From Planctomycetota bacterium (GTDB lineage Bacteria; Planctomycetota; JAJSAM01; JAJVHW01), in assembly GCA_021414065.1 (NCBI GenBank), contig JAIOPE010000047.1, positions 46,272 to 110,271 of the forward strand: 64,000 nucleotides of DNA, in the 5' to 3' direction. The stretch's first letter is position 1. Each line of letters opens with the position of its first letter. The notes under the pieces are model-generated. The model was not told where the DNA came from and ran no database searches. It was given only the letters and a program-made list of their open reading frames with translations. This document shows positions 13,490 to 35,973 of this stretch, piece by piece. Position numbers and translations under genes: made by a program.

Positions 13490-13532
13490 CCGGTCGTTTC
13501 CCCGCCGGTCGCTCGACGCGATGCCGGAGGGG

Positions 13533-16865: not shown

Positions 16866-19445
16866 TCAGCGAGCCGCGGCGGCTTCGAGTGCCGCTGCGC
16901 CGACCGGGTCGCCGACGCGCCGGAGAGCGGCGACCACTTCGCGAATGATCCCGACGAGTTCCTCCGATGGCGGCACCGCAGCCGCGCGCGTGCGGGTCAA
17001 TGCGTCGCGCGCGGCCTCCGCTGCGTCGGTGACGCGCCCGAGCTTCAGCCGCGCGGCGATCAGGATCGCGGCCGACGCATGCCCGCGCGGAGCCTCGTCG
17101 GCCGCCCAAGCGGCAGGGATTGCCTCGATCGCAGCGCGCTCGGCGTCGGCCGCCGCGCCCTGGGCCCACCGGACACGCGCGAGTTGCGAGTACACCATCG
17201 ACCGCACCGGAACGCCCTCGATCGCCCCTGCCGCGAGCCCATCCGCGAGTTCCTGCTGGAGCGAACCCGCCTCGTCGAGACGTCCCTGGTCGAGTCGCAA
17301 CCCCGCGAGGTTGTGAATGAGGAACACTGTGATGTCGGCGCGCAGTCCGGGTCCTCGACGCGCCGTGCCCGCGGCGGCGACCATCACCTCTCCGGCCTCG
17401 TCGAGACGCCCCGCTTCCTTGAGCGCCTGTCCGTAGTTGCAGGCCGCGTAGAGGGTGTTGCCGTTGTCCGCGCCGAGCAGTTCACGCCAGCCAACGTGCG
17501 CGCGCCTCAGGAACTCAACGCCTTCGGGCAACGGAGCGTCCTCGGTGAGCGCGATCCCGAGGTTCATCTGCGCGCTGAGAAGGGCTGAGTCCGGCGGCCC
17601 GGCGCGCCGCTCCAGCACTGCGACCGCGGCGCGCAACACCTCGATGGCCTCGGCGGTGCGACCGGCATCGCGCAGGACGAGGCCTCGCCCCGTCTGCACT
17701 GCGGCGGTGCGCGGATCATCGGTTCCGTAGGCGTCCACGGCCGCGGCGCACGCAAGCGTGATTTCCGCGAGCGCCGTCGCGTCGTCTGCGTTGCAGCGTG
17801 CCGCGTGGGCGACGCACAGATGCAGGTCGATGATCGACGGGTCCGTCCTGCCGACGATCGGCTCCAGCTCAGCGATGGCACGCGACGCCATCGCGCCCGA
17901 CTCCTCGTGGAGCGACAGCCCGGCGTACGTCGAGGCAACGGCGCTCATGACCGCGGCGCGGAGCTTCGGCTTGGTTGCGAGCTTCTTCGCCGCGTTCGCC
18001 TCGGCCTTGGCGAGTGCGTCCACGACCTTCGTGTCGCGCCCGCTCTCCCCGTCGTCGGCCGCCGTGAAGATCTCGGTCATGAAGTCGCGCACTGCGTTCG
18101 CGTTGTCGCGTTCGGACTCGGCGGTTCTCTGGGACGCCTCGGCCTCGATCCGCGCGTCGTCGGCACGGCGTTTCTCTGCGCGAACGTCGTCGTTCGCCGC
18201 GCGTTGCTGGACGTACAGCGCGGTCGGCGTGCCGACGCAGAGCACGAACGCGAGCACAGCGGCCGTGGCGCTCGCCGGGTGCCGCCGTATCCATCGCCGC
18301 AGCCGCCCGGGGACGCCGACGCGTCGCGCTCCGACCGGTCGCCCGTCGAGGAACGCGCCGAGGTCCGCGGCGAAGTCGGCAGCGGTCGCGTAGCGTTTGG
18401 CGCGGTCCTTCTCGAGCGCCGCAAGGCACACCGTCTCGAGGTCCCGCGACACGTAAGGAGCCGACGAACGGATGGACTCCGGCTCGCGCGTCCCGATCGC
18501 CGAGAGCACCGCCTGCGTGGTGTGCCCGGCGAACGGCACGCGCAACGTCAGCATCTCGTAGAGCGTTGCGCCGAGCGACCAGACGTCGGTCCGGCCATCG
18601 AGATCGGCCACGGCACCGGACGCCTGCTCGGGCGAGGCGTAGTGCGGCGTACCGAGAAAGTCGCCCGCAATCGTCAGCGTGCGCTCCTCCTCCACGTCGG
18701 CCAGGCCGAAGTCGAGGAGGAGAGCGCGACCGTCGCTGCGCAGGATCACGTTCTGCGGCTTGACGTCGCGATGGACGACGCCCTGCGCGTGCGCGCACGC
18801 GAGCGCCTGCGCGACCTGGCGCACGACTCCGGCCGCGGCCATCGCGTAGGTTCCGGGAGGCACAGAGGAGAGCCCCGCGGCGGTCGCGAAGTCCTTCGTC
18901 GTGATGTCGCCCGCCGTCTTGCCGAGGGATCGCAGATGCGCAACCACCGCGGCGAGTGAGCGCCCCCGCACGAACTCCATCGCAATCCACGCATGCCCGC
19001 CGTCGTCGCCGGACTCATAGACCCGCACGATGCCGGGGTGCTCCAGTCGTGCCACGGCCCGGGCCTCGCGCTCGAAGCGCAGTCGCGACGGCTCCGACGC
19101 GAGGCGCTGCGGAAGCACCTTCAGCGCCACGCGGCGGCGGAGCTTCACGTCTTCGGCGAGGTAGACCTGGCCCATCCCGCCGCGGCCGATCTCGCCGAGG
19201 ATCTCGTAGCCGCCAATGACCGGACGGGACTCCTTCGCGCGCGGTGCCGCCTGCTTCGCCATCGCGGCGAGTTCGCGGATCTGCGCGACGAGGTCCGCGC
19301 GACCTGCGGCGGCCCCGGCGACATCGGGCTCGCGGCCTTCGGCGACGTCGTCGAGGAAGCGCGCGAGCGCGGCGTCCAGGATGGACTCGTCGTCGGGCAC
19401 GGAACCCCCCGGATGCGATGGACCGAGACGATCAGAGTCGGTCAC
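16866..19445 (-). CDS. Ser/Thr protein kinase with C-terminal TPR repeats, STK4
   Basis: Inferred GTG start (VTDSDRLGPS...) overlapping the ECF-c TGA stop (GTGA at 19442-19445). GRGGMGQVYLA, HRDVKPQNVIL, DFGLA. The track ORF (1024 aa) runs on through the ECF gene in another frame. Confidence 0.8.
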   Translation of the reverse strand: MTDSDRLGPSHPGGSVPDDESILDAALARFLDDVAEGREPDVAGAAAGRADLVAQIRELAAMAKQAAPRAKESRPVIGGYEILGEIGRGGMGQVYLAEDVKLRRRVALKVLPQRLASEPSRLRFEREARAVARLEHPGIVRVYESGDDGGHAWIAMEFVRGRSLAAVVAHLRSLGKTAGDITTKDFATAAGLSSVPPGTYAMAAAGVVRQVAQALACAHAQGVVHRDVKPQNVILRSDGRALLLDFGLADVEEERTLTIAGDFLGTPHYASPEQASGAVADLDGRTDVWSLGATLYEMLTLRVPFAGHTTQAVLSAIGTREPESIRSSAPYVSRDLETVCLAALEKDRAKRYATAADFAADLGAFLDGRPVGARRVGVPGRLRRWIRRHPASATAAVLAFVLCVGTPTALYVQQRAANDDVRAEKRRADDARIEAEASQRTAESERDNANAVRDFMTEIFTAADDGESGRDTKVVDALAKAEANAAKKLATKPKLRAAVMSAVASTYAGLSLHEESGAMASRAIAELEPIVGRTDPSIIDLHLCVAHAARCNADDATALAEITLACAAAVDAYGTDDPRTAAVQTGRGLVLRDAGRTAEAIEVLRAAVAVLERRAGPPDSALLSAQMNLGIALTEDAPLPEGVEFLRRAHVGWRELLGADNGNTLYAACNYGQALKEAGRLDEAGEVMVAAAGTARRGPGLRADITVFLIHNLAGLRLDQGRLDEAGSLQQELADGLAAGAIEGVPVRSMVYSQLARVRWAQGAAADAERAAIEAIPAAWAADEAPRGHASAAILIAARLKLGRVTDAAEAARDALTRTRAAAVPPSEELVGIIREVVAALRRVGDPVGAAALEAAAAR

Positions 19446-20068
19446 GGCTGCGGTGGCGAGACGGACCGACTGCGAAGCACTTCGAGCCGCTTCGTATACG
19501 CCTCGAGCGCCTTGCGGAACCTGCGCCACGCGGCGGAGAGATGGATGCCCATCTCGCCCGCGACATCTTCCATCGGCCGCTCCTCGAAGAGTCGCGCCTG
19601 CAGGAGCGCCTGGTCCTCTTCCGGAAGCTCCGCGAGCGCCGCGAGCATCACGCGGGACCGCTCTCGCGACGACGCAACGCGACTCGGCGTCTCCGACCCC
19701 GCGGGCAGGAGGTTCCCGAGCGACGACACGCCTTCGGCCTGCTCGAAGTCGGAGAACAGCGCTCGCGTGCCCTTGCCGCCTCGCTTCTCGGTGGTGGCGT
19801 CGCGTGCGATCTTGCGGATGCGGTTTTTCGCGATCGTGATGAGCCACGATCGATAGGCCCGGACGTCGGTCCATGTGTGTTGCGCCCGGTCCCGCCAGGC
19901 GAGGGCGAGCGTCTCCTGCCAGACGTCCTCCGCCTGACACACGCCGCGCACCACGGGCCCCATCGACCGGTCGATGATCACCAGGATCGAGTCCGGACCT
20001 GCCTCGTCGATGATCGCGTCGAAACGCGACGGATCGAGATGGTCCCCGGGTTGCGTCGGCTCGCTCAC
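19442..20068 (-). CDS. ECF sigma factor (ECF-c)
   Basis: ...DPSRFDAIIDEAGPD...AEDVWQETLALAWRDRAQHTW...LPEEDQALLQARLFEERPMEDVAGEMGIHLSAAWRRFRK. Start uncertain: the only in-frame candidate after the upstream gene's stop is GTG at 20068 (VSEPTQPGDHL...). Confidence 0.7.
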   Translation of the reverse strand: MSEPTQPGDHLDPSRFDAIIDEAGPDSILVIIDRSMGPVVRGVCQAEDVWQETLALAWRDRAQHTWTDVRAYRSWLITIAKNRIRKIARDATTEKRGGKGTRALFSDFEQAEGVSSLGNLLPAGSETPSRVASSRERSRVMLAALAELPEEDQALLQARLFEERPMEDVAGEMGIHLSAAWRRFRKALEAYTKRLEVLRSRSVSPPQP

Positions 20069-21221: not shown

Positions 21222-21551
21222 ATGACGAAGCTCACGACGAAGACGAACCTGACGGCCGGCGGCGCGAAGTTGAACCACGCCGCGGCGATCCGCACGGCGG
21301 CGGTCGCGGGTAGCGCGAAGTTGAACCATGCGGCCGCGGTTCGCACCACGATCGCTGCGGGCAGCGCACGGCTGAACCACGCCGCTCCGGTGCGCACGGC
21401 GGTCGCCGCCGGGGGGATGAAGCTGAACCACGCGCCGACCGTCCGCGCCGCGGTCGTCGCCGGGGGAGTGAAGCTCAACCACGCCGCGTCGGTGAAGACG
21501 AACGTCGTCGCTGCGGGATCCAAGCTGAACCACTCCGCTCTCGCGCGCTGA
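21222..21551 (+). CDS. Small tandem-repeat protein 5 (109 aa)
   Basis: gaacGGAGAgacgaccATG; MTKLTTKTNLTAGG then NHAA.VRT.[VI]AAGS.KL repeats; ends NHSALAR*. Confidence 0.8.
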   Translation: MTKLTTKTNLTAGGAKLNHAAAIRTAAVAGSAKLNHAAAVRTTIAAGSARLNHAAPVRTAVAAGGMKLNHAPTVRAAVVAGGVKLNHAASVKTNVVAAGSKLNHSALAR

Positions 21552-21595: not shown

Positions 21596-24124
21596 TCACA
21601 GCATTCGCAGGCGTTCCAGCAGCGTCGATGCAGCGGCTGCCATCGGAGCGGCTTCCTCGCTCATCGGCTGCCCCAGCGTCGCCTCGAGTTCCGCCATCGC
21701 CTCCGCGGCCGCGCCGCGCCGCACCATCAGTTCCGCCAGATCGACGCTGAGGTGGACGGCCCGACGGTCGCCCGGCGCCATGCGGCCCTTCCACGCAGAG
21801 CGCAGCGTCCGCAGGATCTCCTCCGCCTCGCCGAAACGACCCTGGAGAGCTCGGATGCGAGCCAACTGCCCGGCTACGCCGACACGCGTCGCAGACGTCG
21901 CGTCCAAGGTCGCGGTGGCGCCCTCGAACACCTCCTCCTGCAACGCCGCGGCAGCGTCCACCTCGCCCAGGTCGATTCGGAGACCGGCCAGGTTGTGAAT
22001 GGCCCCAAACGTGGCCAGGATGTTCGACCCGTACACCTCGCGTGCAAGACGGCACACGTCTTCCAGGTGGGCCGCCGCAGCCGCGGGTCCGTCGTTCTCT
22101 TTGACGAACTGAGCGTACGACGCCAGCGCGTCGATCGTCTCGGGATCGCGCTCGCCATAGGTCTCCCGGCGTGCGTCCCACACGACGCGCATCTCGTCCT
22201 GACCGTCGCGGTCGCGTCCGAAGAGATCGAGAAGGATCGCCCGCGTCTGACGAACGCGAAGCGTCACCCGGTGGCTCGCTCCGAGCGCATCGACGGCCCG
22301 GGGCAGCAGCGCGTCCGCGAACGTCAGCGCTTCGGCGCCGTGACCGTCCATCCACATGGCGTGGACGAAGTCGTGCTCGATGTCGAGTCGGCGTGGGTCG
22401 TCGCTGCGTAACGTGCGCACAGCCGCCGCGGCCACGTCGCGGAGCATCCGGTGCGCTGTCTCGGCGTCGCCCTGCTGCAGGAGGAGCACCGCGAGCAGGT
22501 CCTGCGCGACGAGCGTATCGGGATGATCCGGTCCGAGGCGGCGGTCGAACGTCGCGACGGCCGCGCGGAGGAGTTCGTCGGCCGCGGCGTGCTCCGCGAG
22601 ACCGGTGTAGGCCCGGCCGAGCGTCGTCTGGAGCGCGGCGCGCGTCTCCTCGTTGCCTTGGAACGCGGTGGAGAGCTCGCGGCGCGCCCGTTCGAGGACG
22701 TCGAACACGCGCGCGTCGCGGCCGCGTTGCTCCAGGTCCACCGACTCGAACATCCCCTGGAGGAACCGGTGAACCTGCGCGAACTTGTCGCGCTCGATCT
22801 CCGCGCGGGCGAGGGCAGCCTCGGTCTCGGCCTTCGCAGCGCGCGCGGCGGCCTCGCTCTCGCGAGCGAGCTTCTCGTTGCGTTCCGCGCGGAGCACCGC
22901 AGACCGGAGCTCGGCGTTGCGCGACTGCTGTTCGACGAGCAACTCCGTGAGAGCGCGGTTGCGCTTCACCATGCGGAGCCCGCGCTCAAGAACGCCTGCG
23001 CGCCGCGCTCGGACCGACTTTCCGGCAAGCACCGAGCGCAGGTCGTCCGCGAAAGCGCGCGCAGTCGGCGTGCGGCGCGATCGGGCCTTCTCCAGAGCGG
23101 CGAGGACGACCGTCTCGAGGTCGCGCGGCACGACCGGGTTCAGCTTGGACGGCGCCTCGGGCTCCCACGTCTGGATGCGACGCAGCACCTCGTGCGCGAC
23201 GGGTCCGGGGAACGGCACCTGCAACGTGAGCGCCTCGTAAAGCGTCGCGCCGAGCGACCACACGTCGCTCCGCTCGTCGAGGGACGACGTCTCGCCGGCC
23301 GCCTGCTCGGGACTCGCGTAGTGCGGCGTGCCGAGGAACCCATGCGCCTGCGTGAGCGTCGCTTCGTCCTCGACGTCGGCCAGACCGAAGTCGAAGAGCA
23401 GCGCGAAGCCGTCGCCTCGCAGCATCACGTTCGACGGCTTGACGTCGCGGTGGACCACGCCCTGCGAGTGCGCGTGTGCCAGGGCTTCGGCAATGTCGAT
23501 CGCTGCGCGCGTCGCGGCCTGCCACCACGCGCCGCGCCACGGATCCGGCGGGGCACCGGCGACACCGGCGGCGAACGCGAAGTCCGCACCGGAAAGCCCC
23601 CCGGGCTCGCGACCTCGCAGCGACTCGACCGCGGCTGCGAGCGTGCGCCCATCGACGTACTGGAGTGTGAAGTACGGCTGCCCGTCGGCGTCGCCCATCT
23701 CGTAGACCGGCACGATGAGCGGGTGCGCCAGACGCGCCACGGCCCGGGCCTCGCGCTCGAACCGCTCACGCGCTCGGCCCGACGCCAGCCGCCGGGGCAG
23801 CACCTTCAGCGCGACGAGGCGCCCGAGTCGCTTGTCCTTCGCGAGGAGCACCTGCCCCATCCCGCCGCGGCCGAGTTCACGGATGATCTCGTATCCAGGA
23901 AACTCAGCGGCGGCCGCGTGGATGCGCGGCGGCGAGATCTCCCGCGCGAGCGCCCATGCCGCTTCGATCCGCGGACGCAGATCGGGACGCTCCAGAGCAA
24001 CGGCGTCGACGTCCGGCGTGCGCCCCGCCGCGAGGTCGCGGAGGAACGCCTCCATGGCGGCATCGACGATGCGATCGTCCGGCGTCTCGCTCGAAGATCC
24101 GCGGTCCGCGCCTGCGCGCGTCAC
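21596..24124 (-). CDS. Ser/Thr protein kinase with C-terminal TPR repeats, STK5
   Basis: GTG start (VTRAGADRG...) overlapping the ECF-d stop (GTGA at 24121-24124). GRGGMGQVLLA, HRDVKPSNVML, DFGLA. TPR C-terminus. Confidence 0.8.
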   Translation of the reverse strand: MTRAGADRGSSSETPDDRIVDAAMEAFLRDLAAGRTPDVDAVALERPDLRPRIEAAWALAREISPPRIHAAAAEFPGYEIIRELGRGGMGQVLLAKDKRLGRLVALKVLPRRLASGRARERFEREARAVARLAHPLIVPVYEMGDADGQPYFTLQYVDGRTLAAAVESLRGREPGGLSGADFAFAAGVAGAPPDPWRGAWWQAATRAAIDIAEALAHAHSQGVVHRDVKPSNVMLRGDGFALLFDFGLADVEDEATLTQAHGFLGTPHYASPEQAAGETSSLDERSDVWSLGATLYEALTLQVPFPGPVAHEVLRRIQTWEPEAPSKLNPVVPRDLETVVLAALEKARSRRTPTARAFADDLRSVLAGKSVRARRAGVLERGLRMVKRNRALTELLVEQQSRNAELRSAVLRAERNEKLARESEAAARAAKAETEAALARAEIERDKFAQVHRFLQGMFESVDLEQRGRDARVFDVLERARRELSTAFQGNEETRAALQTTLGRAYTGLAEHAAADELLRAAVATFDRRLGPDHPDTLVAQDLLAVLLLQQGDAETAHRMLRDVAAAAVRTLRSDDPRRLDIEHDFVHAMWMDGHGAEALTFADALLPRAVDALGASHRVTLRVRQTRAILLDLFGRDRDGQDEMRVVWDARRETYGERDPETIDALASYAQFVKENDGPAAAAAHLEDVCRLAREVYGSNILATFGAIHNLAGLRIDLGEVDAAAALQEEVFEGATATLDATSATRVGVAGQLARIRALQGRFGEAEEILRTLRSAWKGRMAPGDRRAVHLSVDLAELMVRRGAAAEAMAELEATLGQPMSEEAAPMAAAASTLLERLRML

Positions 24125-24765
24125 GGGTCGGCCGCCGCCGACACGTCGCCCGCCGCATCGAGACCGCGCAACGCGTCTCGATACAGCACCGCGCCGCGCC
24201 GGAACCGTCGCCACGCGGCCGAGAGGTGGATGTCGAGTTCCGCCGCCACCGACTCCATCGGACGCTCCTCGAGCACGTGGAGCCTCACCACCGCCTCGAC
24301 ATCTTCGGGAAGCGCGTCGAGCGCTCGCAGGATGAGTCGCGCGCGCTCGTGGTGCGACGCGATGCGACTCGGAGTGACGGAGTCGGCGGGGAGAACGTCG
24401 GCGAGCGATCCGCTGTCCGACGCGCGCAGGTCCTCGATCCGGTCGGCAGCGTGCCCCGCGCCGCGCTTCTCCGCGGAGAGGCGGCGACTCGCGTCGCGGA
24501 TGCGGTTCCGGGCGATCTCGAGCACCCACGCGCGGTAGGCGTCCCGCGAAGTCCACGTGTGCTGGGCCCGGTCCCGCCAGGCCGCGGCGAGGGTCTCCTG
24601 CCAGATGTCCTCCGGCTCGCACGCCGCGCGGAGTCTCGGACCCATCGACCGCGCGATGATCGCGACGATCGCGGCCGGCGAGAGGCTCTCGACGAGGGCA
24701 TCGAATCGCACCGGGTCTGCGTGCGAGGGCAGGTCGTTCGCGGGGCGGGACGGGGAGTCGGTCAT
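24121..24765 (-). CDS. ECF sigma factor (ECF-d)
   Basis: ATG 24765 (MTDSPSRPANDLPSHADPVRFDALVESL...). PEDIWQETLAAAWRDRAQHTW; sigma-4 LPEDVEAVVRLHVLEERPMESVAAELDIHLSAAWRRFRRG. Confidence 0.8.
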   Translation of the reverse strand: MTDSPSRPANDLPSHADPVRFDALVESLSPAAIVAIIARSMGPRLRAACEPEDIWQETLAAAWRDRAQHTWTSRDAYRAWVLEIARNRIRDASRRLSAEKRGAGHAADRIEDLRASDSGSLADVLPADSVTPSRIASHHERARLILRALDALPEDVEAVVRLHVLEERPMESVAAELDIHLSAAWRRFRRGAVLYRDALRGLDAAGDVSAAADP

Positions 24766-24821: not shown

Positions 24822-24846
24822 GAAATCTCCGGATTTCCCCGACAGG
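24822..24846. promoter_or_regulatory. Conserved intergenic motif, copy 6 (GAAATCTCCGGATTTCCCCGACAgg)
   Basis: Between ECF-d and small gene 6. Palindromic GAAATC-n4-GATTTC. Confidence 0.45.
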
Positions 24847-24922
24847 TTCGCCCGCGCCTTCCGCTCCCTCCCCATGTGGCGCGAGGAACGAGCCACAGGA
24901 ACCGAAACGAGGAGAGACGACC

Positions 24923-25468
24923 ATGACGAAGACCACGAAGATGACGGTGAAGACGACGATCCTGGCGGGCGGCACGCGCCTGAACCACGCCGCTGCGGTC
25001 CGCTCGACCGTCGTCGCCGGTGGCGTGCGCACCAATCACGCGGCGCCCGTCCGGACGGCTGTCACGGCGGCCGGAATGCGTCTGAACCACGCGGCGGCCG
25101 TTCGCTCGACCGTCGTCGCCGGTGGTCTGCGCTGGAATCACGCGGCGCCGGTGCGGACGTCGGTGATCGCCGGCGGCCTACGCCTGAACCACGCCGCGGC
25201 CGTTCGCTCGACCGTCGCCGCCGGTGGAACGCGCAACAACCACGCGGCGCCGATCAGGACCTCGGTGATCGCCGGGGGCCTCCGGCAGAACCACGCGGCG
25301 CCGATCCGCTCCACGATCGCCGCCGGCGGCCTCCGCTGCAACCACGCCGCGACCGTTCGCTCGACCGTCGTTGCGGGCGGCGTCCGCCAGAATCATGCGG
25401 CCCCGGTCAGGACGTCGGTCGTCGCCGGCGGCTTCCGACGGAACCACGCCGCGGCTGTCCGGGCCTGA
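24923..25468 (+). CDS. Small tandem-repeat protein 6 (181 aa)
   Basis: aacGAGGAGAgacgaccATG; MTKTTKMTVKTTILAGG then NHAA.[VI]R[ST].V.AGG repeats; ends NHAAAVRA*. Confidence 0.8.
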   Translation: MTKTTKMTVKTTILAGGTRLNHAAAVRSTVVAGGVRTNHAAPVRTAVTAAGMRLNHAAAVRSTVVAGGLRWNHAAPVRTSVIAGGLRLNHAAAVRSTVAAGGTRNNHAAPIRTSVIAGGLRQNHAAPIRSTIAAGGLRCNHAATVRSTVVAGGVRQNHAAPVRTSVVAGGFRRNHAAAVRA

Positions 25469-25479
25469 GCCGCACTTGA

Positions 25480-27897
25480 CTACGACTGCGCGGCGCGGGC
25501 GGCCCAGTCCCTCGCGTCGCGGAGCGCCACCTCGGCCTCGTCGTGCCGACCAAGGTCCGCGAGGCAGCGAGCGTGGACCTGCGCCGCCTGTTCGCGCCAC
25601 CGGAACGAACCGTTCAGTTCCGCCGCGCGTGCGGCATCGGTGACAGCGTCGATCGCGCCGGCGTGGTCGCCCTTGAGATGGAGCAGGCGAGCCAGTTGCA
25701 CGAGCGGGAACGCACGCAGCGGCGAGTCGGGCGGCGACGTCGCCAGCGCACGGTCCACGACCGATCGCTGAAGTGCAGCGGCTTCCTCGATCCGCCCGGC
25801 GTCGAGGAGCACGCCGGCCAGGTTGTGGTCTGCCGAGATGCTCGCGAGATGGCCGGGTCCGAACACTTCAGACGACAACGCGGACGCGCGGCGGATGAGC
25901 GGGACCGCCTCGTCGATGCGCCCAACCTCCTTCAGCATCTGACCGAGGTTCGCCAGCCCGAACAGCGTCTCCGGGTGTCGCTCGCCGAGCGTCCGCTCAC
26001 GTGCCGCGCAGGAGGACCGGAGCAGTCCGATGCCCTCGTCCGCGCTTTCCGCACGAAGCGACAGGATGAGGCCCAGGTTCTGCTCCGCGCGAAGTGAAAC
26101 CTCGTGATCGGGACCGAGCACGCGGCGGGCACGTTCGAGCGCAGAACGGATCGTCGCCTCCGCCTCGTCTCGCCGCCCGGCCCACTCGAGCATCTGCCCG
26201 ACCTCTGCGTCGTAACGGATCGTGCGAGCGTCGTCGGGCCCGAACACGCGGCGAGCCCGCTGCGCAATCTCGACCGCGTCTCGCGCGGGTCCGAGCGGAG
26301 CGCCGAGTTGGGCCGCAGAGGAGCTCCACACGAACTCGAGATCGATCCGTGCGGCGTTCGAAGCGTCGAGTCGCGCGCACGCCGCGTCCACGGCCGGCCG
26401 ACCGAGGGCCACAGCCTCGGCGTGGCGTCCGAGTTCGCCGAGCACAGCGACGATCACCGTCTGGATCTCGGCTGCGGCTTCCGGGTCTCCGGCGAACGAT
26501 GCGCCGGTGCGCGCAAGGCCCCGCTCCAGCACATCGGCGACGCGCACGTCGCGCCCTTCCTGCGCCGGGTCCGCGGAACTGAGAGTCTCCTTGAGGAACG
26601 TGAGCGCCGACTCGGCGCGGCGCCGCGCGGCGAGGGCCTCCGCCTCGTTCCGCTCTGCGCGCAGCACGGCGGCGCGGAGCTCTGCGTTGCGCGACTGCTG
26701 CTCGACGAGAAGCTCCGTCAGCGCGCGGTTGCGTTTCACGACGCGCAGCCCGCGTTCGAGCATCCCGGCGCGACGTGCGCGGATCTTCCGCCCCGCAAGG
26801 AACGCGCGCAGATCGTCGGCGAACTCGGCGGCGGTCGCGTATCGCTTCGCCGGGTCCTTCTCGAGCGCGTGGAGGACGATCGTCTCCAAGTCCGGCGGCA
26901 GCCCCGGAACGAGTTTCGACGGCGGCTCCGGTTCCCATGTCTGCACGCGGCGCAGGATCTCCTGCGTCGTCGGCCCGGGGAACGGGAGCTGCAACGTGAG
27001 CGCCTCGTAGAGCGTCGCGCCAAGCGAGAAGACGTCGGACCGGGCGTCGAGCGCGTCGTTCGTGCCCGCGGCCTGCTCGGGACTCGCGTAGTGCGGCGTG
27101 CCGAGGAACCCGTGCGTCAGCGTGAGCGACGCTTCGTCTTCGACGTCGGCTAGCCCGAAGTCGAAGAGCAGGGCGAAGCCGTCGTCGCGCAGCAGCACGT
27201 TCGACGGCTTCACGTCGCGGTGCACGACGCCGCTCGCGTGCGCGTGCGACAACGCATCGGCGACGTCCATCGCGGCGCGCGCCGCCGCCCTGGCCCACGT
27301 GGACGTCCAGGGCTCCGGCGGGGCCTTCGTGCATCCGGCGGACCGCGCGAAGTCGGCGCCCGTGAGCAAAGCGACCCCGGTGCGCGACTCGCGCGTCGCT
27401 CCGATGGCCTGCGCGAGCGTGCGGCCCGGTACGTAGCGCATCGAGAACCACGGCTGGCCGTCGTCCTCTCCCGTCTCGTAAACCGGCACGACGAGCGGAT
27501 GGTCGAGCTTCGCGACGGCCCTGGCTTCGCGCAGGAAGCGGTCCTTCGCCCGCGGCGACGTGATCCGTCGCGGAAGCACCTTCAGCGCGACCACGCGCCC
27601 GAGGCGGAGGTCGCGGGCCAGATACACCTGCGCCATTCCGCCGCGGCCCAGCTCGCGGAGGACTTCGTGCCCGGCGATCGTCGGCCGCGCAACCGCGCCC
27701 CGGCGCGTCGCGACGTCGTGCGCGAGCGCCGCGAGCTCGCGGACGCGATCGGCGAGGTCCGGTCGGCTCGGAAGTGCCGTCTCGACCACGATCGCCCGCC
27801 CGGCGGCGACGTCTGCGACGAACTGTCCGAAGACGCCGTCGAGGAGCGCGCCGTCCGGATCGCCCTGGGCGGACGAGCTCGAATCTCGCTCCGTCAC
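25480..27897 (-). CDS. Ser/Thr protein kinase with C-terminal TPR repeats, STK6
   Basis: GTG start (VTERDSSSS...) overlapping the ECF-e stop. GRGGMAQVYLA, HRDVKPSNVLL, DFGLA. Confidence 0.8.
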   Translation of the reverse strand: MTERDSSSSAQGDPDGALLDGVFGQFVADVAAGRAIVVETALPSRPDLADRVRELAALAHDVATRRGAVARPTIAGHEVLRELGRGGMAQVYLARDLRLGRVVALKVLPRRITSPRAKDRFLREARAVAKLDHPLVVPVYETGEDDGQPWFSMRYVPGRTLAQAIGATRESRTGVALLTGADFARSAGCTKAPPEPWTSTWARAAARAAMDVADALSHAHASGVVHRDVKPSNVLLRDDGFALLFDFGLADVEDEASLTLTHGFLGTPHYASPEQAAGTNDALDARSDVFSLGATLYEALTLQLPFPGPTTQEILRRVQTWEPEPPSKLVPGLPPDLETIVLHALEKDPAKRYATAAEFADDLRAFLAGRKIRARRAGMLERGLRVVKRNRALTELLVEQQSRNAELRAAVLRAERNEAEALAARRRAESALTFLKETLSSADPAQEGRDVRVADVLERGLARTGASFAGDPEAAAEIQTVIVAVLGELGRHAEAVALGRPAVDAACARLDASNAARIDLEFVWSSSAAQLGAPLGPARDAVEIAQRARRVFGPDDARTIRYDAEVGQMLEWAGRRDEAEATIRSALERARRVLGPDHEVSLRAEQNLGLILSLRAESADEGIGLLRSSCAARERTLGERHPETLFGLANLGQMLKEVGRIDEAVPLIRRASALSSEVFGPGHLASISADHNLAGVLLDAGRIEEAAALQRSVVDRALATSPPDSPLRAFPLVQLARLLHLKGDHAGAIDAVTDAARAAELNGSFRWREQAAQVHARCLADLGRHDEAEVALRDARDWAARAAQS

Positions 27898-28529
27898 GAG
27901 CCGGGCCCACCCGGCGGCATCGACCGCGACTCCAGCGATTTCACGAGGTCCCGGAACAACTGCGAGCCCCTGCGGAAACGCCGCCACGCGGCCGAGACGT
28001 GCGCGTTGAGCTCTGCGGCGATCGTCTCCATCGGCTTGTCTTCGAAGAGGTGCATGCGCACGTACGGCTCGACGTCGGGAGGCAGCTTCTCGAGGGCTTC
28101 GGTCAGGATGCGCGACCGCTCGCGGTGCGACGCCACGCGACTCGGCGTGACCGACCCGGCGGGCAGGACGTCGGCGAGGGAGACGCTGTCCGAGGGGTTC
28201 CGCTCCGAGAAGAGCCCGGTGCCGCCCGTCCCACCGCGCTTCGCCGCGCCGTCGGCTCGAGCGAAGTCGCGGATGCGGTTCCGCGCGATCGAGATGAGCC
28301 ACGTGCGATACGAGTGGAGCCCCTCCCACCGGTGCGTCGTGCGATCCCGCCAGGCCGACGCGAGCGTTTCCTGCCAGACGTCTTCCGGCTCATAGCGCCC
28401 GCGGAGCGTGGCTCCCATCGAACGGGCGATCACGACGAGGACTTCGTCCGGGGCGACGCTCTCGATCACGCGGTCGAACTGCGCAGGGTCCGCGTGGGGT
28501 GCGTCGCCGGTGAAGTCGTCGTCGGCCAT
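27894..28529 (-). CDS. ECF sigma factor (ECF-e)
   Basis: ATG 28529 (MADDDFTGDAPHADPAQFDRVIESVAPD...). PEDVWQETLASAWRDRTTHRW; sigma-4 LPPDVEPYVRMHLFEDKPMETIAAELNAHVSAAWRRFRRG. Confidence 0.8.
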   Translation of the reverse strand: MADDDFTGDAPHADPAQFDRVIESVAPDEVLVVIARSMGATLRGRYEPEDVWQETLASAWRDRTTHRWEGLHSYRTWLISIARNRIRDFARADGAAKRGGTGGTGLFSERNPSDSVSLADVLPAGSVTPSRVASHRERSRILTEALEKLPPDVEPYVRMHLFEDKPMETIAAELNAHVSAAWRRFRRGSQLFRDLVKSLESRSMPPGGPGS

Positions 28530-29149: not shown

Positions 29150-31490
29150 GCGCCGCCGCAGCGTCGTCCGCAACGCGCGACGCGCGCTCCGCCGCCTCCG
29201 TCAGCCCGAGCCCCGCGAGGATCGCCCGGGCCCGGAGCGCGGCCTCCGCGGCCCCGCCGTGGTCCAACAACCCGGCCCGGATGCGGGCGAGTTGGAGGAT
29301 CACGGCGGCCATCGGCCCGGAGTCCGCCGCGAGGGCACCGGGCGCGGCGCGCAGCGCCCGTTCCTGGCATCGGAGCGCCTCGGGGAAGTCGCCGGCGTCC
29401 ATCGCCGCCCCGGCGAGGTTGTGCAGGTTCATCACGGTCGTCGGATGGCGTTCGCCGAACACGTCCATCGACAGTTCGACGGCGCGCTCGAACATCGGCC
29501 GCGACTCCGCCACGCGCCCCGCCTCCTTGCGAAGCTGCGCCGCGAGTCCGAGCGAGTTCAGCGTGTCCGGATGTCGCTCGCCGACCGTGTCGCGCCGGCC
29601 CACCCACGTCGCGTGCATCAGGACGTCCGCCTCGTCCGACCGGCCGGAGTTCGCGAGCGCCAGCGCGAGGTTGTTCTGGGCGTGGAGCGTGGACTCTGCC
29701 GAAGGTCCGAGCGCGCGGACCGCGTCGGCGAGCGCCGGCCGCAGCACCGCCTCGGCCTCGATCGGCCGGTCCGCCGCCGTCAGGATGCCGCCCAGATTCG
29801 CGCTCGCTTCGACGGTCACCGGGTGCTCGTGGCCGAAGGCGCGCGCGGCGGAGTCGGCCGCCTCTTGCGCGAACGCGAGCGCCCGGTCGAACTCCCCGAA
29901 CTGACCGGCTGCGGACGCCGCGACGCCGAGCAGGTGGATCGTCTCGATGCGATCCGGGCCGAGGTCCGCACGCGCGCGGACGAGCGCCTCCTCCGCAACC
30001 TGCACAGCCTCTTCGCTCGCACCGAGTCCCGTGAACGTCTTCGAGACGACGAGCAGCACCGCTGCGCGGAGTTCCGGATGGTCCGCGAAGTCCCGACGGG
30101 CTCGCTCCGCAGCCTTTCGCAGCACGTCGGCCACGCGCACGTCGCGCCCGCCCATCTCGGGGTCGGCGGAACCGAGCGTGTCCACGAGGAGCGACGTCAC
30201 CGCGGCCGCCTTGTCGCGTTCGGCCTCCGCCCGTGCTCGCGCCTCGCGCGCCTCGGCCTCGTTCCGCTCGGCGCGCAGCACCGCCGAACGCAACTCGGCG
30301 TTGTGCGCCTGCTGTTCGACGAGCAGGTCCGTCAGGGCCCGGCCGCGTTTCACGCTGCGAAGGCCGCGCTCGATGAAGCCCGCACGCTTCGCGCGCACCT
30401 TCCGGCCGTCGAGGACCGCGCGCAAGTCTTCGGCGAACGCAGCGGCGCTCGCGTACCGCTTCGCCGGGTCCTTCTCGAGGGCGGCGAGCACGACCGTCTC
30501 CAGATCCTTCGGGATGCTCGCGTTCAGCTTCGACGGCGACTCCGGCTCCCAGGTCTGGATGCGACGCAGCACCTCGTGTGTGGTCGGCCCGGGGAACGGG
30601 AGCGCCAGCGTGATCGCCTCATAGAGAGTCGCGCCGAGCGAGAAGACGTCGGTCCGCACGTCGATCGAGTCCGTCGCGCCGGCCGCCTGCTCGGGACTCG
30701 CGTAGTGCGGCGTGCCGACGAAACTGTGCGTCAGCGTGAGCGTCGCTTCGTCGTCCACGGACGCGAGACCGAAGTCGAACAGCAACGCGAACCCGTCGCG
30801 CCGGAGCATCACGTTCGACGGCTTCACGTCGCGGTGCGTCACTCCCTGCGAGTGCGCGTACGAAAGCGCATCGGCGACGTCGGCTGCGGACTGCGCCGCC
30901 GCGCGCCACCACGGGCCGGCCCAACGCTGCGGCGGCGGCGCGACTCCCGCGCATTGCCCGAAGTCAGCGCCTGTCAGAGCCTGCGGATCCCTCGATCTCA
31001 CCGACTGGATCGCCGTCGCGAGCGTCGCGCCTTCGACGAACGCCATCGTGAAGTACGGCTGCCCTTCGGCCTCTCCGAGATCGTAGACCGGCACGACGAG
31101 CGGGTGCTGGAGCCGCGCCACCGCGCGGGCTTCGCGATCGAATCGCTCCCGCGCCCGGCCCGCGGCCATGCGCCGCGGGAGCACCTTCAGCGCGACCGTC
31201 CGGCCGAGCCGGGTGTGGCGGGCGAGGAGCACCTGACCCATGCCCCCGCGTCCGAGTTCACGGAGGATCTCGTAGCCGGCGAACGTCGGCCGCAGCGCCG
31301 GCCGACGGGGCGCGATGTCGATCGCGAGTGCCCACGCGGCCCGGACACGGTCCCTGAGATCCGGGCGGCCCGGCACGGCGGCGTCGAGGTCCACCGCGCG
31401 GCCTTCGGACACGGCGTCGATGAAGTCGGTCAGGAGACGATCGAGGAGATCGTCGTCGGGCGACCCGGCGTCGCTGTCGGCCCCGCTCAC
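29115..31490 (-). CDS. Ser/Thr protein kinase with C-terminal TPR repeats, STK7
   Basis: GTG start (VSGADSDAGSPDDDLLDRLL...) overlapping the ECF-f TGA stop. GRGGMGQVLLA, HRDVKPSNVML, DFGLA. Confidence 0.8.
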   Translation of the reverse strand: MSGADSDAGSPDDDLLDRLLTDFIDAVSEGRAVDLDAAVPGRPDLRDRVRAAWALAIDIAPRRPALRPTFAGYEILRELGRGGMGQVLLARHTRLGRTVALKVLPRRMAAGRARERFDREARAVARLQHPLVVPVYDLGEAEGQPYFTMAFVEGATLATAIQSVRSRDPQALTGADFGQCAGVAPPPQRWAGPWWRAAAQSAADVADALSYAHSQGVTHRDVKPSNVMLRRDGFALLFDFGLASVDDEATLTLTHSFVGTPHYASPEQAAGATDSIDVRTDVFSLGATLYEAITLALPFPGPTTHEVLRRIQTWEPESPSKLNASIPKDLETVVLAALEKDPAKRYASAAAFAEDLRAVLDGRKVRAKRAGFIERGLRSVKRGRALTDLLVEQQAHNAELRSAVLRAERNEAEAREARARAEAERDKAAAVTSLLVDTLGSADPEMGGRDVRVADVLRKAAERARRDFADHPELRAAVLLVVSKTFTGLGASEEAVQVAEEALVRARADLGPDRIETIHLLGVAASAAGQFGEFDRALAFAQEAADSAARAFGHEHPVTVEASANLGGILTAADRPIEAEAVLRPALADAVRALGPSAESTLHAQNNLALALANSGRSDEADVLMHATWVGRRDTVGERHPDTLNSLGLAAQLRKEAGRVAESRPMFERAVELSMDVFGERHPTTVMNLHNLAGAAMDAGDFPEALRCQERALRAAPGALAADSGPMAAVILQLARIRAGLLDHGGAAEAALRARAILAGLGLTEAAERASRVADDAAAALSERGASPPSG

Positions 31491-32116
31491 GTCGCGCGAC
31501 TCTTCGATTCGAACGACTGCAACGCTTCGCGGTAGATCTCCGCGCCGCGACGGAACCGCCGCCACGACTGTGAGAGTCCGAGCCCGAGCGCCGCGGCGAC
31601 GTCCGGCATCGGCGTCTCCTCGAGCAGGTGCATCCGCACGATCGGCTCGATGTCGTGCGGGAGTGCCGCGAGCGCCGCGAGAACCGCCTTCGCACGCTCG
31701 TTGTGGGACGCCACGCGGCTCGGGGTGACCGACCCCGCAGGGAGCACCGCCGAGAGCGACACGCTCCCCGCGCCGCGCAGCGCGCCGAACGTCGCCGCCC
31801 CCGCCCCACCGCCCCGCTTCTCGGCGTGGGCCACGCGGATCATGTCCTTGATCCGGTTCTTCGCGATCGTGAGGAGCCAGTTCCGGTAGCCGCGGTTCCC
31901 CGCCCAGACGTGCTGCTCGCGATCGCGCCAGGCCTGCGCGAGCGTCTCCTGCCAGACGTCGTCGGCTTCGCAGATCGCGCGCGCCGCGGGCCCCATCGCG
32001 CGGTCGATGAGCGCCAGCAGCGACTCCGGGCCGATGTCGTCGATGAGCGCGTCGAACCGAATCGGGTCGAGGTGCGGGGCCGCTCGCTGGTCGGAAACCG
32101 GGAGATTCTCGGTCAA
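31487..32116 (-). CDS. ECF sigma factor (ECF-f)
   Basis: Likely TTG start at 32116 preceded by AAGGAG (caAGGAGtttgcgcTTG). ...HLDPIRFDALIDDIGPE...ADDVWQETLAQAWRDREQHVW; sigma-4 IVRMHLLEETPMPDVAAALGLGLSQSWRRFRRG. The start codon choice is uncertain. Confidence 0.7.
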   Translation of the reverse strand: MTENLPVSDQRAAPHLDPIRFDALIDDIGPESLLALIDRAMGPAARAICEADDVWQETLAQAWRDREQHVWAGNRGYRNWLLTIAKNRIKDMIRVAHAEKRGGGAGAATFGALRGAGSVSLSAVLPAGSVTPSRVASHNERAKAVLAALAALPHDIEPIVRMHLLEETPMPDVAAALGLGLSQSWRRFRRGAEIYREALQSFESKSRAT

Positions 32117-32169
32117 GCGCAAACTCCTTGCTGTGCATGGGTTGTCGCCGACACGCCGACCCGGGCCGC

Positions 32170-35305: not shown

Positions 35306-35973
35306 GCACCGCCCCCGCGCGACGCAGCCGAGTCGAGAGCGCGGAGCCGGTCGCGGTAGAGCGTCACGCCGCGCCGGAACCTGCGCCACGCCGCGGCGAG
35401 GTGGATTCCGAGGTCCGCTGCGATGCTCTCCATCGTGCGCCCCTCGAAGAGGTGCAGGCGGACGACCGGTTCGACGTCCGCCGGCAGTTCGTCGAGCGCA
35501 GCCAGCATGAGCCGCGACCGCTCGTTGTGCACCGCGATGCGCGACGGCGTCACGGAGCCGGCGGGCAGGATGTCGGCGAGCGACAGGCTCTCGGCCGGCT
35601 TGCGCTCGGAGAAGAGCGCCGCGCCGCGCTCCCCGCCGCGCTTCTCGGCGGACGCGGCGCGCGCCATGTCGCGCACGCGGTTCAGCGCGAGCGTCACGAT
35701 CCAGCGTCGGTACGCGGCGAGGTCCTCCCACGTGTGCGACTCACGGTCCCTCCACGCCGACGCGAGCGCCTCCTGCCAGACGTCTTCGGGCTCCATCCGC
35801 CCCCGCAACGCGGGCCCCATCGCCCGGGCGATCACGACGAGCATCGCATCCGGGCCGACGCTCTCGATGAGCGCGTCGAACCGGGCTGGGTCGCAGTGCG
35901 GGGCAGGGCCCACTTCACGCGCGGGCACGCCTGGCTCCGGCGGGTTTCCGGAGGATTGCGGCCGAATCTCCAT
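35302..35973 (-). CDS. ECF sigma factor (ECF-g)
   Basis: ATG 35973 preceded by AAGGAG (MEIRPQSSGNPPEP...HCDPARFDALIESVGPD...). PEDVWQEALASAWRDRESHTW; sigma-4 VVRLHLFEGRTMESIAADLGIHLAAAWRRFRRG. Confidence 0.8.
   Translation of the reverse strand: MEIRPQSSGNPPEPGVPAREVGPAPHCDPARFDALIESVGPDAMLVVIARAMGPALRGRMEPEDVWQEALASAWRDRESHTWEDLAAYRRWIVTLALNRVRDMARAASAEKRGGERGAALFSERKPAESLSLADILPAGSVTPSRIAVHNERSRLMLAALDELPADVEPVVRLHLFEGRTMESIAADLGIHLAAAWRRFRRGVTLYRDRLRALDSAASRGGGA

What the first reader, a model, noticed from the sequence alone, without database searches (positions are those of the whole stretch)
24121..24765. Invariant LPAGS-x-TPSR-x-A(S)H-x-ER motif in the sigma2-sigma4 linker of all nine ECFs: candidate phospho-switch for the coupled kinase
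All nine ECF proteins share an unusually conserved segment between region 2 and region 4. Examples: VLPAGSVTPSRVASHRERS, LFPAGSVTPSRIASHRERA, YLPAGSTTPSRVAHHSERA, LLPAGSETPSRVASSRERS and MLPPGSVTPSRVAGARERS. It is preceded by a conserved AEKRGG.

Linkers of ECF sigmas are normally poorly conserved. The Thr-Pro/Ser cluster is a plausible Hanks-kinase target. No anti-sigma factor gene is present anywhere in the array. Instead each ECF is translationally coupled to a kinase. It has been reported for Vibrio parahaemolyticus EcfP/PknT that an STK-linked ECF sigma can be activated by Thr phosphorylation rather than by anti-sigma release. This locus may use an analogous mechanism with a different (linker) site.
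Basis: partly seen in the sequence, partly recalled or inferred. Interest (0 to 1): 0.55.

Follow-up and report, generated by a model that had tools for sequence, protein, structure and literature searches.

The report
Invariant Ser/Thr cluster in kinase-coupled sigma factors
Nine tandem sigma-factor genes of an uncultured planctomycete, and about 150 relatives elsewhere, carry an unchanging Ser-x-Thr-Pro-Ser-Arg patch where the sigma factor threads out of RNA polymerase; it is a reasonable but unproven target for the protein kinase encoded next to each of them.

Summary
All nine ECF sigma genes in the window share P126, S129, T131, P132, S133, R134, A136, E140 and R141 (numbering of the ECF at 24121-24765). 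The motif is a family signature. In about 147 cluster representatives from Planctomycetota metagenomes, position 131 is always Thr or Ser. Position 129 is Ser/Thr in 89% and position 133 is Ser in 84%.

The motif is not free linker. T131 caps the first sigma-4 helix and P132 starts it. It aligns with N117-P118-E119 of E. coli sigma-E, where the linker enters the RNA-exit channel. P132 and E140 are generic ECF features. The Ser/Thr residues and R134 are family-specific, and they replace the acidic residues that unrelated ECFs usually have there.

Region 2.2 keeps its acidic motif, so the EcfP/ECF43 mechanism does not apply. A Hanks kinase lies next to the ECF on the same strand in 26 of 32 related loci. 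No anti-sigma domain was found.

Linker phosphorylation of a kinase-coupled ECF already has a precedent (EcfK, 2026). A phospho-switch is therefore the best reading (about 0.4), but it is untested. A purely structural contact with RNA polymerase is nearly as likely.

The wider locus looks more unusual than the motif: 17-residue-repeat genes, ECF-kinase/TPR modules and a C39 exporter.

The parts
24121..24765 (-). ECF sigma factor gene (214 aa; NCBI MCE9635318.1). This is the gene named in the finding.
   Evidence: Pfam Sigma70_r2 at residues 37-97 and Sigma70_r4_2 at 143-191. AF2 model with pLDDT 87. Foldseek hits to ECF sigma factors. Exact match to the NCBI protein.
24343..24393 (-). Codons for L125-R141: LPADSVTPSRIASHHER. 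The core is S129-x-T131-P132-S133-R134, and the T131 codon is at 24373-24375.
   Evidence: Invariant in the nine paralogues. Family-wide. T131 is the N-cap and P132 the N1 residue of helix 132-150. Aligns with sigma-E N117-P118-E119-N120...E126.
24460..24474 (-). Codons for A98-G102 (AEKRG). This is the end of the long sigma-2 helix, the 'head' of the linker.
   Evidence: K100, R101 and G102 are invariant in the nine copies and at least 97% conserved in 104 homologues. They align with the GRR of AlgU.
21596..24124 (-). Hanks-type Ser/Thr kinase with a C-terminal TPR domain (842 aa). Its GTG start overlaps the ECF stop codon (GTGA).
   Evidence: Pfam Pkinase 9.7e-39 plus TPR_12 and TPR_10. VALK, HRDVKPSN, DFG and GTPHYASPE motifs are intact, and there is no transmembrane segment. 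Junction shown.
24923..25468 (+). Divergently transcribed small gene (181 aa) made of 17-residue repeats, AGGxxxNHAAxVR[ST]xVx.
   Evidence: GC3 of 0.83 in this frame. Listed with its paralogues and aligned. Weak match to a hexapeptide-repeat Pfam family.
24822..24855 (+). Conserved promoter-like element GAAATCTCCGGATTTCCCCGACAGGTTCGCCCGC, upstream of the small gene.
   Evidence: Aligned in nine upstream regions. Its function is inferred only.
8468..9088 (-). ECF paralogue. Motif P..S.TPS at 8699-8722. Kinase 6030-8471 lies downstream.
9085..9708 (-). ECF paralogue. Motif at 9328-9351. It is coupled to the next ECF, not to a kinase.
19442..20068 (-). ECF paralogue. Motif at 19682-19705. Kinase 16866-19445 lies downstream and has a transmembrane helix.
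27894..28529 (-). ECF paralogue. Motif at 28140-28163. Kinase 25480-27897 lies downstream.
31487..32122 (-). ECF paralogue. Motif at 31718-31741. Kinase 29115-31490 lies downstream.
35302..35973 (-). ECF paralogue. Motif at 35542-35565. Kinase 32672-35305 lies downstream.
39322..39954 (-). ECF paralogue. Motif at 39568-39591. Kinase 36776-39325 lies downstream.
42913..43542 (-). ECF paralogue. Motif at 43153-43176. Kinase 40505-42916 lies downstream.

Best explanation
The nine proteins belong to a Planctomycetota-specific family of ECF sigma factors, each encoded next to a Hanks-type Ser/Thr kinase.

Shown:
- The family signature S-x-T-P-S-R...E sits where the sigma2/sigma4 linker turns into the helix that runs through the RNA-exit channel and continues as sigma-4 helix 1.
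- The Pro and the Glu are generic ECF residues.
- The hydroxyl residues and the Arg are family-specific. They stand where unrelated ECFs usually carry Glu or Asp.

Inferred:
- The partner kinase, switched on through its TPR sensor domain, phosphorylates this cluster. T131 is the most likely acceptor because it is the only position that is Ser/Thr in every family member. S133 and S129 are alternative or additional sites.
- The phosphate supplies the negative charge that canonical ECFs have built in, and it stabilises the N-terminus of the tail helix.
- The linker tail then seats in the basic RNA-exit channel, and the holoenzyme becomes competent for open-complex formation and promoter escape.
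- The likely target is the ECF-type promoter in front of the divergent small repeat gene of each module.

This would be the counterpart, in a family with an intact DAED-like region 2.2, of the charge-restoring phosphorylation known from ECF43 sigma factors.
For: - The motif is invariant in the nine paralogues, which are 48-57% identical. It ranks among the most conserved columns of 104 homologues: P132, S133 and E140 are three of only nine invariant columns.
- S129, T131 and S133 are the only 100% Ser/Thr columns.
- In 146 representatives of 50%-identity clusters, position 131 is T in 137 and S in 9, with no Asp, Asn or Ala.
- Both serine codon families encode S133.
- In the AF2 model T131 is the N-cap of helix 132-150. 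It follows a low-confidence, presumably flexible and exposed linker.
- The motif aligns to sigma-E N117-P118-E119, and 'LPADSVTPSR' aligns to Mtb sigma-E 'VPADEPNPEQ'. Sigma-E residues 119-130 form the linker tail in the RNA-exit channel (PMC6648896).
- Unrelated ECFs are acidic at P+1 or P+2 in 19 of 30 cases; the family is acidic in 0 of 34.
- Region 2.2 is acidic in all members.
- A kinase is adjacent on the same strand in 26 of 32 related loci. Overlapping stop/start codons occur in all nine window copies and are frequent elsewhere.
- The kinases keep their catalytic motifs.
- No anti-sigma domain was found.
- Precedents exist for linker phosphorylation: EcfK by PknS, and SigH by PknB (PMC13147305).
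Against: - There are no phosphorylation data of any kind.
- Thr/Ser followed by Pro is what a helix N-cap plus N1 position needs, so a structural role could explain much of the conservation.
- A Pro at +1 is, from general knowledge, not a favoured context for PknB-like kinases.
- S133 is Gly in 13 of 146 representatives.
- The motif persists in the window ECF that is not directly coupled to a kinase, and in 4 related loci with no kinase within 5 kb.
- 'PSR' or 'TPS' occurs at the same position in a few other planctomycetal ECFs outside the family.
- The middle of the linker is also Ser-rich (positions 111, 118, 120 and 122 are 60-76% Ser). It lies closer to the position of the proven EcfK sites.
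- No PP2C phosphatase gene is in the window.
- ECF and kinase paralogues show no co-phylogeny.
Confidence: 0.4

Rival explanations
1. The motif is purely structural. T-P-S-R is an N-capping box that starts the tail helix of the sigma3.2-like linker and sigma-4 helix 1. It is conserved because it packs against the RNA-exit channel, the beta-flap or the beta' dock of the planctomycetal RNA polymerase. The kinase regulates something else, or acts on the sigma factor at another site.
For: - T131 is the N-cap and P132 the N1 residue in the AF2 model.
- Pro at this position (23 of 30) and Glu at position 140 (25 of 30) are general ECF features.
- The same place is conserved within the RpoE/AlgU group (NPEN versus SPER).
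- PSR or TPS occurs in other planctomycetal ECFs.
- The motif is kept where no kinase is adjacent.
Against: - Good N-caps include Asp and Asn, yet none occurs in 146 representatives. Control ECFs tolerate L, A, P and R at this position.
- In E. coli sigma-E the whole tail can be replaced without loss of core binding, and linkers in general show no residue conservation (PMC6648896).
- Three hydroxyl residues in five positions, in place of the acidic residues of canonical ECFs, is more than capping requires.
Confidence: 0.3
2. The motif is a docking surface for the kinase rather than a phospho-acceptor. The kinase would hold the sigma factor in an inactive complex, like an anti-sigma factor, through its kinase domain or through the conserved ~55-residue helical region that precedes it. 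It would release the sigma factor on activation.
For: - Overlapping stop/start codons, typical of sigma/anti-sigma pairs, occur in all nine copies.
- No anti-sigma gene is present.
- All ten kinases share a conserved N-terminal segment (DDxLLDxxxxxFxxDxxxGRxxDxxxxxPxRPDL) of unknown role.
- Seven of the eight ECF-coupled kinases are soluble, so they could bind a cytoplasmic partner.
Against: - The N-terminal segment matches no anti-sigma Pfam family.
- The motif and the ECFs do not co-vary with their kinases.
- Kinases of related loci carry quite different architectures (FGE-sulfatase sensors, reversed gene order), yet the motif is unchanged.
Confidence: 0.12
3. The kinase does phosphorylate the ECF, but in the Ser-rich middle of the linker (positions ~111-122, pattern S-x-S-x-S), as in EcfK. 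The S-x-TPSR block is only the structural anchor next to it.
For: - Positions 111, 118, 120 and 122 are Ser in 60-76% of 104 homologues, and this stretch is disordered in the model.
- The EcfK sites T104, T106, S108 and S110 show the same alternating pattern in the loop that contacts beta' (PMC13147305).
Against: None of these positions is as conserved as 129, 131 or 133, and acidic residues already occur in this stretch (position 112 is D/E in 88%).
Confidence: 0.1

Closest known systems
EcfK/PknS of Xanthomonas citri (ECF43)
   Same: An ECF sigma factor encoded beside a Hanks kinase with a TPR-rich sensor domain, and no anti-sigma factor. The kinase phosphorylates the sigma2/sigma4 linker (T104, T106, S108, S110), and T106 is needed for function. 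The phosphate is proposed to replace the acidic residues that other ECFs carry at that spot (PMC13147305).
   Different: - EcfK also uses T51 in a non-acidic region 2.2. The family here keeps an acidic region 2.2.
- The EcfK sites lie in the loop that faces the beta' patch around R322/K325. The candidate sites here lie further along, at the start of the tail helix.
- EcfK T106 is S/T/D/E in only 77% of ECF43 members. T131 is T/S in 100% of this family.
EcfP/PknT of Vibrio parahaemolyticus (ECF43)
   Same: A kinase-coupled ECF activated by threonine phosphorylation that restores a missing negative charge (PMC8999054).
   Different: The EcfP site lies in region 2.2, where STTA replaces DAED. Here region 2.2 reads EPEDVWQE, so that mechanism is not needed and not available.
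Planctomycetal kinase-associated ECF groups (ECF59, ECF61, ECF62, ECF217; Jogler 2012, Casas-Pastor 2021)
   Same: Planctomycetota ECFs with a co-encoded Ser/Thr kinase and no anti-sigma factor. The reviews state that groups other than ECF43 keep a DAED-like motif and may work differently (PMC7826278 and PMC8999054).
   Different: Membership could not be tested, because the group HMMs and descriptions were not available. All family members found are from uncultured MAGs. No conserved linker-tail motif has been described for those groups in the papers I could read.
Mycobacterium tuberculosis SigH/PknB
   Same: An ECF phosphorylated by a Hanks kinase at two threonines (T106, T110) in the sigma2/sigma4 loop (PMC13147305 discussion).
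   Different: SigH has an anti-sigma factor (RshA) and its kinase is not co-encoded. The consequence of SigH phosphorylation is unknown.
E. coli sigma-E linker 'tail' (residues 119-130) in the RNA-exit channel
   Same: T131-P132-S133-R134...E140 aligns with N117-P118-E119-N120...E126, and the spacing to the LP of region 4 is the same. This tail forms a continuous helix with sigma-4 helix 1 (PMC6648896).
   Different: Sigma-E has Asn and Glu where this family has Thr and Ser. Sigma-E is controlled by the anti-sigma factor RseA.

Membership tests
ECF (group 4) sigma-70 factors | [quoted passage not shown] | tested here: met
   Pfam Sigma70_r2 and Sigma70_r4_2 in proteins of 206-223 aa. TIGR02937 at 50 bits, above its cut-off of 42.9. 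Profile hits to solved ECFs. Foldseek hits to ECF sigma factors.
ECF43 (EcfP/EcfK type) | The acidic DAED motif of region 2.2 is replaced by uncharged residues with a conserved Thr (STTA/QTTA) | tested here: not met
   Region 2.2 is EPEDVWQE, or [PA]ED[IV][WL]Q, in all nine copies and in all family members.
ECF43 (EcfP/EcfK type) | Co-encoded Hanks Ser/Thr kinase and no anti-sigma factor | tested here: met
   Eight of nine ECFs are directly coupled to a kinase. 26 of 32 related loci have an adjacent kinase. No anti-sigma Pfam domain was found.
Kinase-associated planctomycetal ECF groups (ECF59, ECF61, ECF62, ECF217) | Score against the group HMMs of the ECF classification (ECF Hub) | not testable with these tools
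   The supplementary group descriptions and HMMs are not held. Only the context features (Planctomycetota, kinase neighbour, retained acidic region 2.2) agree.
TIGR02984 Sig-70_plancto1 | Score at or above the curated cut-off of 183.75 bits | tested here: not met
   It is the best NCBIfam hit, but at only 71.6 and 73.3 bits.
Hanks-type Ser/Thr protein kinases (partner genes) | Gly-rich loop, VAIK Lys, HRD catalytic loop, DFG and an APE-like motif | tested here: met
   GRGGMG, VALK, HRDVKPSN, DFGLA and GTPHYASPEQ occur in all ten kinases. Pfam Pkinase E-values run from 1e-35 to 1e-42.
Phospho-regulated sigma factor | Demonstrated phosphate on the sigma factor, with an effect on its activity | not testable with these tools
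   This needs kinase assays, MS mapping and mutant reporters.

The most novel reading that the evidence does not exclude
The array is a bank of about ten parallel peptide-signalling circuits.
- Each small gene encodes tandem 17-residue units, each ending in Gly-Gly. The C39-peptidase ABC exporter at the edge of the locus cuts and exports them.
- The strongly diverged TPR domain of each kinase recognises its own peptide.
- The kinase phosphorylates T131 (and S129/S133) at the N-cap of the linker-tail helix of its ECF.
- The activated ECF transcribes the divergent precursor gene.

This would be a quorum-sensing-like positive loop built from a Hanks kinase and a phospho-activated sigma factor, and a new site class for sigma-factor phosphorylation.
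Probability: 0.12. Interest if true: 0.85.

Novelty: new variant of a known kind. Interest (0 to 1): 0.5.

Why it matters
Kinase-coupled ECF sigma factors are common in Planctomycetota. The only worked-out mechanism (ECF43: a phosphate replaces a missing acidic residue in region 2.2, and in EcfK also in the linker loop) cannot apply to families that keep an acidic region 2.2. Reviews list how those families are controlled as an open question.

This family offers a sharply defined, testable candidate. It is a Ser/Thr cluster that never varies, at the point where the linker enters the RNA-exit channel, and it stands in place of acidic residues of canonical ECFs.

If the idea is confirmed, 'charge restoration by phosphorylation' would extend to a third contact point between sigma and core RNA polymerase. 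It would also give a sequence rule for predicting kinase-regulated sigma factors. If it is refuted, the motif still marks a lineage-specific sigma-core contact.

Tried and rejected
- EcfP-type regulation at region 2.2: rejected, because the acidic motif is retained in every member.
- DNA-level conservation or gene conversion as the cause: rejected. Synonymous codons vary, and Ser133 uses both codon families.
- Membership in TIGR02984: rejected on score.
- Assignment to an ECF Hub group: not possible. No supplements are held, and Jogler 2012 and Wiegand 2020 are not held.
- Co-phylogeny of the ECF and kinase paralogues as a sign of specific pairing: not significant (Spearman 0.11, Mantel p 0.33).
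- Homologue search for the small repeat protein: no hits at all, probably because of composition filters.
- Search for NHA-repeat ORFs in 72 related loci: none. One was later found in L073.
- AF2 model of the small repeat protein: all-beta, but pLDDT is 56, so it is not usable.
- A hand-made regular expression for the promoter-like element was too loose to be informative.
- Foldseek of the ECF model only confirmed the ECF fold in a compact arrangement.
- A sigma-kinase complex could not be modelled, because the tool predicts single chains only.
Full report
**What is there.** The window has 72% G+C. It matches a 110,521-bp contig of an uncultured 'Planctomycetes bacterium' MAG; the ECF at 24121-24765 is NCBI MCE9635318.1. 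A six-frame motif search, stop-to-stop extension and an HMM scan find exactly nine ECF sigma genes, all on the minus strand. Pfam finds Sigma70_r2 (ending near residue 97) and Sigma70_r4_2 (starting near residue 143) in them.

All nine stop codons overlap the next start codon (GTGA or ATGA). In eight cases the next gene encodes a protein of 790-880 aa with an N-terminal Hanks kinase domain and C-terminal TPR repeats. In the ninth case (9085-9708) the next gene is another ECF (8468-9088). Two further kinase/TPR genes (10281-12884 and 13533-16103) have no ECF.

**The observation.** The nine ECFs are 48-57% identical. Forty-four columns are invariant, among them K100, R101, G102, P126, S129, T131, P132, S133, R134, A136, E140 and R141.
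- The 16-residue window 126-141 contains nine invariant columns. That equals the region 2.2/2.3 core and is unlikely if invariant columns were spread evenly (P about 0.002).
- Codons vary synonymously. Ser133 is AGY in six copies and TCN in three, so selection acts on the amino acid.
- The copy at the given coordinates reads LPADS rather than LPAGS, and of 'A(S)H' only the Ala is invariant.

**Is the motif family-wide?** Yes.
- A word-indexed search returned 120 homologues, nearly all at about 50% identity and, where named, from Planctomycetota MAGs. S-x-TPSR occurs in 114 of them.
- In an alignment of 104 full-length homologues only nine columns are invariant, and P132, S133 and E140 are three of them.
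- S129, T131 and S133 are the only columns that are 100% Ser/Thr.
- An exhaustive profile search of 1.84 billion cluster representatives gives a sharply bounded family of 148 clusters at E <= 1e-30. In 146-147 informative representatives, position 131 is T (137) or S (9) and nothing else. Position 129 is S/T in 89%. P132 is present in 141, S133 in 123 (Gly in 13), R134 in 124 and E140 in 139.
- A scan of one genome per GTDB species found 32 family loci, all in Planctomycetota MAGs, and all carry the motif.

**Where the motif sits.**
- The AlphaFold2 model (pLDDT 87, pTM 0.79) has a long sigma-2 helix ending at 102 (so AEKRG is the linker 'head'). A low-confidence stretch follows at 103-120, then a helix at 132-150. 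T131 is therefore the N-cap and P132 the first residue of the first sigma-4 helix.
- Sequence searches against solved structures align TPSRIASHHER with NPENLMLSEEL of E. coli sigma-E (1OR7, 6JBQ), dsvtPSr...E with DIESPER...E of AlgU, and LPADSVTPSR with VPADEPNPEQ of the M. tuberculosis sigma-E linker.
- Using my own residue numbering of sigma-E, which agrees with the R76/I77 mutants named in the paper, T131 = N117, P132 = P118, S133 = E119 and E140 = E126.
- Fang et al. divide the sigma-E linker into head (88-98), middle (99-118) and tail (119-130). The tail is a helix continuous with sigma-4 helix 1 and lies in the RNA-exit channel. They note that ECF linkers in general show no residue conservation (PMC6648896).
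- The motif therefore straddles the middle/tail junction. 'Linker' is defensible, but it is the structured end of the linker.

**What is generic and what is special.** In 30 unrelated or distant ECFs aligned to the family profile, Pro is at the P132 position in 23 and Glu at the E140 position in 25, so these two are ordinary ECF features. The position before Pro is variable (T, L, A, P, S, R...). The one or two residues after Pro are acidic in 19 of 30. In 34 family members they are always S-R. The family-specific part is thus a hydroxyl cluster plus Arg in place of acidic residues. A few other planctomycetal ECFs outside the family also have RPSR, TPSQ or TPSV here, at least some of them next to kinases.

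**Link to the kinase.** Among 32 related loci with enough flanking sequence, a kinase domain lies immediately downstream on the same strand in 21. It lies immediately upstream on the same strand in 5, a sub-family with reversed gene order. Two loci have a kinase on the opposite strand and four have none within 5 kb.
- Sensor domains differ between loci (FGE-sulfatase in L002).
- The ten window kinases keep the glycine loop, VALK, HRDVKPSN, DFG and GTPHYASPEQ.
- They share a conserved ~55-residue helical segment before the kinase domain.
- Only three of them (10281, 13533 and 16866) have a transmembrane helix. The other seven carry a 15-residue deletion there and should be soluble.
- Pfam finds no anti-sigma domain and no PP2C phosphatase in the window.

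**Comparison with known mechanisms.**
- In ECF43 (EcfP, EcfK), region 2.2 has lost its acidic DAED motif, and a phospho-threonine restores the charge (PMC8999054 and PMC8103513).
- Here region 2.2 is EPEDVWQE, and it is acidic in every family member. The family therefore fails that defining feature of ECF43.
- Reviews state that the other kinase-associated groups keep a DAED-like motif and may work differently.
- A 2026 paper shows that PknS, which also has a TPR-rich sensor domain, phosphorylates EcfK at T51 and also at linker residues T104, T106, S108 and S110. T106 matters in vivo, and other sigma factors carry acidic residues at that spot. The same paper recalls that PknB phosphorylates Mtb SigH at two loop threonines (PMC13147305).
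- Linker phosphorylation of an ECF is therefore established in principle. The position and the strict invariance seen here are not described in what I could read.

**Most likely mechanism (inference).** The kinase phosphorylates the cluster. T131 is the strongest candidate by conservation. S133 is a candidate because it stands where sigma-E, AlgU, SigW and Mtb sigma-E have Glu. S129 is a candidate because it aligns with a Glu of Mtb sigma-E. A phosphate at a helix N-terminus stabilises the helix (general knowledge, Doig laboratory work, not checked here), and it would add the negative charge that canonical ECFs have at the entrance of the basic RNA-exit channel. That would favour seating of the tail and productive initiation. 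I put this at about 0.4.

The main rival (about 0.3) is a purely structural N-cap and core contact. Lesser rivals are a kinase-docking or anti-sigma-like interface (0.12), and phosphorylation in the Ser-rich middle of the linker instead (0.1).

Points against the favoured reading:
- There are no data on phosphorylation.
- Pro at +1 is an unfavourable context for PknB-like kinases.
- S133 is Gly in 9% of representatives.
- The motif is retained where no kinase is adjacent.
- ECF and kinase paralogues show no co-phylogeny.

**Surroundings.** Each ECF or kinase operon is preceded by a divergent plus-strand gene of 127-212 aa, with coding-like GC3 of 0.82-0.87. These genes are built from 17-residue repeats AGGxxxNHAAxVR[ST]xVx. 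A conserved promoter-like element, GAAATCTCCGGAATTCCCCGACAC..TCCG, lies about 70-100 nt upstream of each.

At the left end of the array are an ABC exporter with a C39 peptidase domain that keeps its catalytic Cys motif, a HlyD protein and a TPR protein. The same combination recurs in another MAG (L073): C39/ABC exporter, ECF, kinase/TPR, and a small NHA-repeat gene on the opposite strand. The TPR parts of the kinases are only 19-38% identical, whereas the kinase domains are 53-78% identical. This suggests, without proof, diversified ligand-receptor pairs. It is the basis of the 'novel case'.

**Verdict.** It is a new variant of a known kind of system: kinase-regulated ECF sigma factors.

Noticed in passing
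window 5502-6029, 9856-10263, 12938-13489, 16362-16808, 21222-21551, 24923-25468, 28703-29149, 32270-32653, 36130-36768, 40105-40500 (all + strand): Ten small genes (roughly 110-212 aa) made almost entirely of 17-residue repeats AGGxxxNHAAxVR[ST]xVx. Each is divergent from an ECF or kinase operon, and each ends in phase with the repeat (...NHAAxVR). GC3 is 0.82-0.87. There is a weak match to a hexapeptide/beta-helix Pfam family. The AF2 model is all-beta but low-confidence. A homologue search gave no hits.
   Followed up: partly
window 237-2966 (-), 2963-4687 (-), 4231-5361 (+); locus L073 1304-6339: A C39-peptidase ABC exporter (catalytic motif QTSAMDCGPAAL present), a HlyD protein and a TPR protein flank the array. 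The same exporter + ECF + kinase/TPR + small NHA-repeat gene arrangement occurs in a second MAG (GCA_034680565.1). Every repeat unit of the small proteins ends in Gly-Gly, the cleavage signal of C39 peptidases.
   Followed up: partly
window 5392-5425, 24822-24855 and the equivalent positions upstream of the other small genes: A conserved element, GAAATCTCCGGAATTCCCCGACAC..TCCG(TC), lies about 70-100 nt upstream of each small gene. A conserved leader, GCGACGCA.GAACG...GGAGAGACGACC, precedes the ATG. The element resembles an ECF-type promoter (GGAAT/C ... CGTC), but this was not tested.
   Followed up: partly
window kinases 10281-12884, 13533-16103, 16866-19445 versus the other seven: Only these three kinases have a hydrophobic transmembrane-like segment between the kinase and TPR domains. 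The other seven have a clean 15-residue deletion there and look soluble. TPR-mediated sensing would then be cytoplasmic in most modules.
   Followed up: partly
window 8468-9708 and 10281-16103: The array is irregular. Two ECF genes are in tandem, coupled by GTGA, with one kinase between them. Two kinase/TPR genes have a small repeat gene but no ECF.
   Followed up: no
window, the eight ECF-kinase pairs: The TPR regions of the paralogous kinases are only 19-38% identical. The kinase domains are 53-78% identical and the ECFs 49-77%. Only the pair 35302/39322 is clearly a recent duplicate.
   Followed up: partly
window 20100-21071 (-): An extra 323-aa ORF lies directly upstream of ECF 19442-20068. 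It has a hydrophobic segment and a weak TPR match. It is the only module with such a gene, and its role is unknown.
   Followed up: no
window 45355-46545 (-) and 43603-45321 (-): A rhomboid protease fused to TPR repeats and a 572-aa protein of unknown function lie directly to the right of the array.
   Followed up: no
loci L002, L006, L007, L012, L013, L014: In related genomes the partner kinase can carry an FGE-sulfatase domain instead of TPR repeats. In one sub-family (motif SQTPSR) the gene order is kinase then ECF.
   Followed up: partly
L027 2553-3296, L034 ~1934, L012 (- strand ~9244), L036 1305-1931: Other planctomycetal ECFs outside the family have RPSR, TPSQ or TPSV at the position equivalent to 131-134. 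At least L027 and L036 are next to kinases. Pro-Ser at the start of the tail helix may therefore be wider among kinase-linked planctomycetal ECFs.
   Followed up: no
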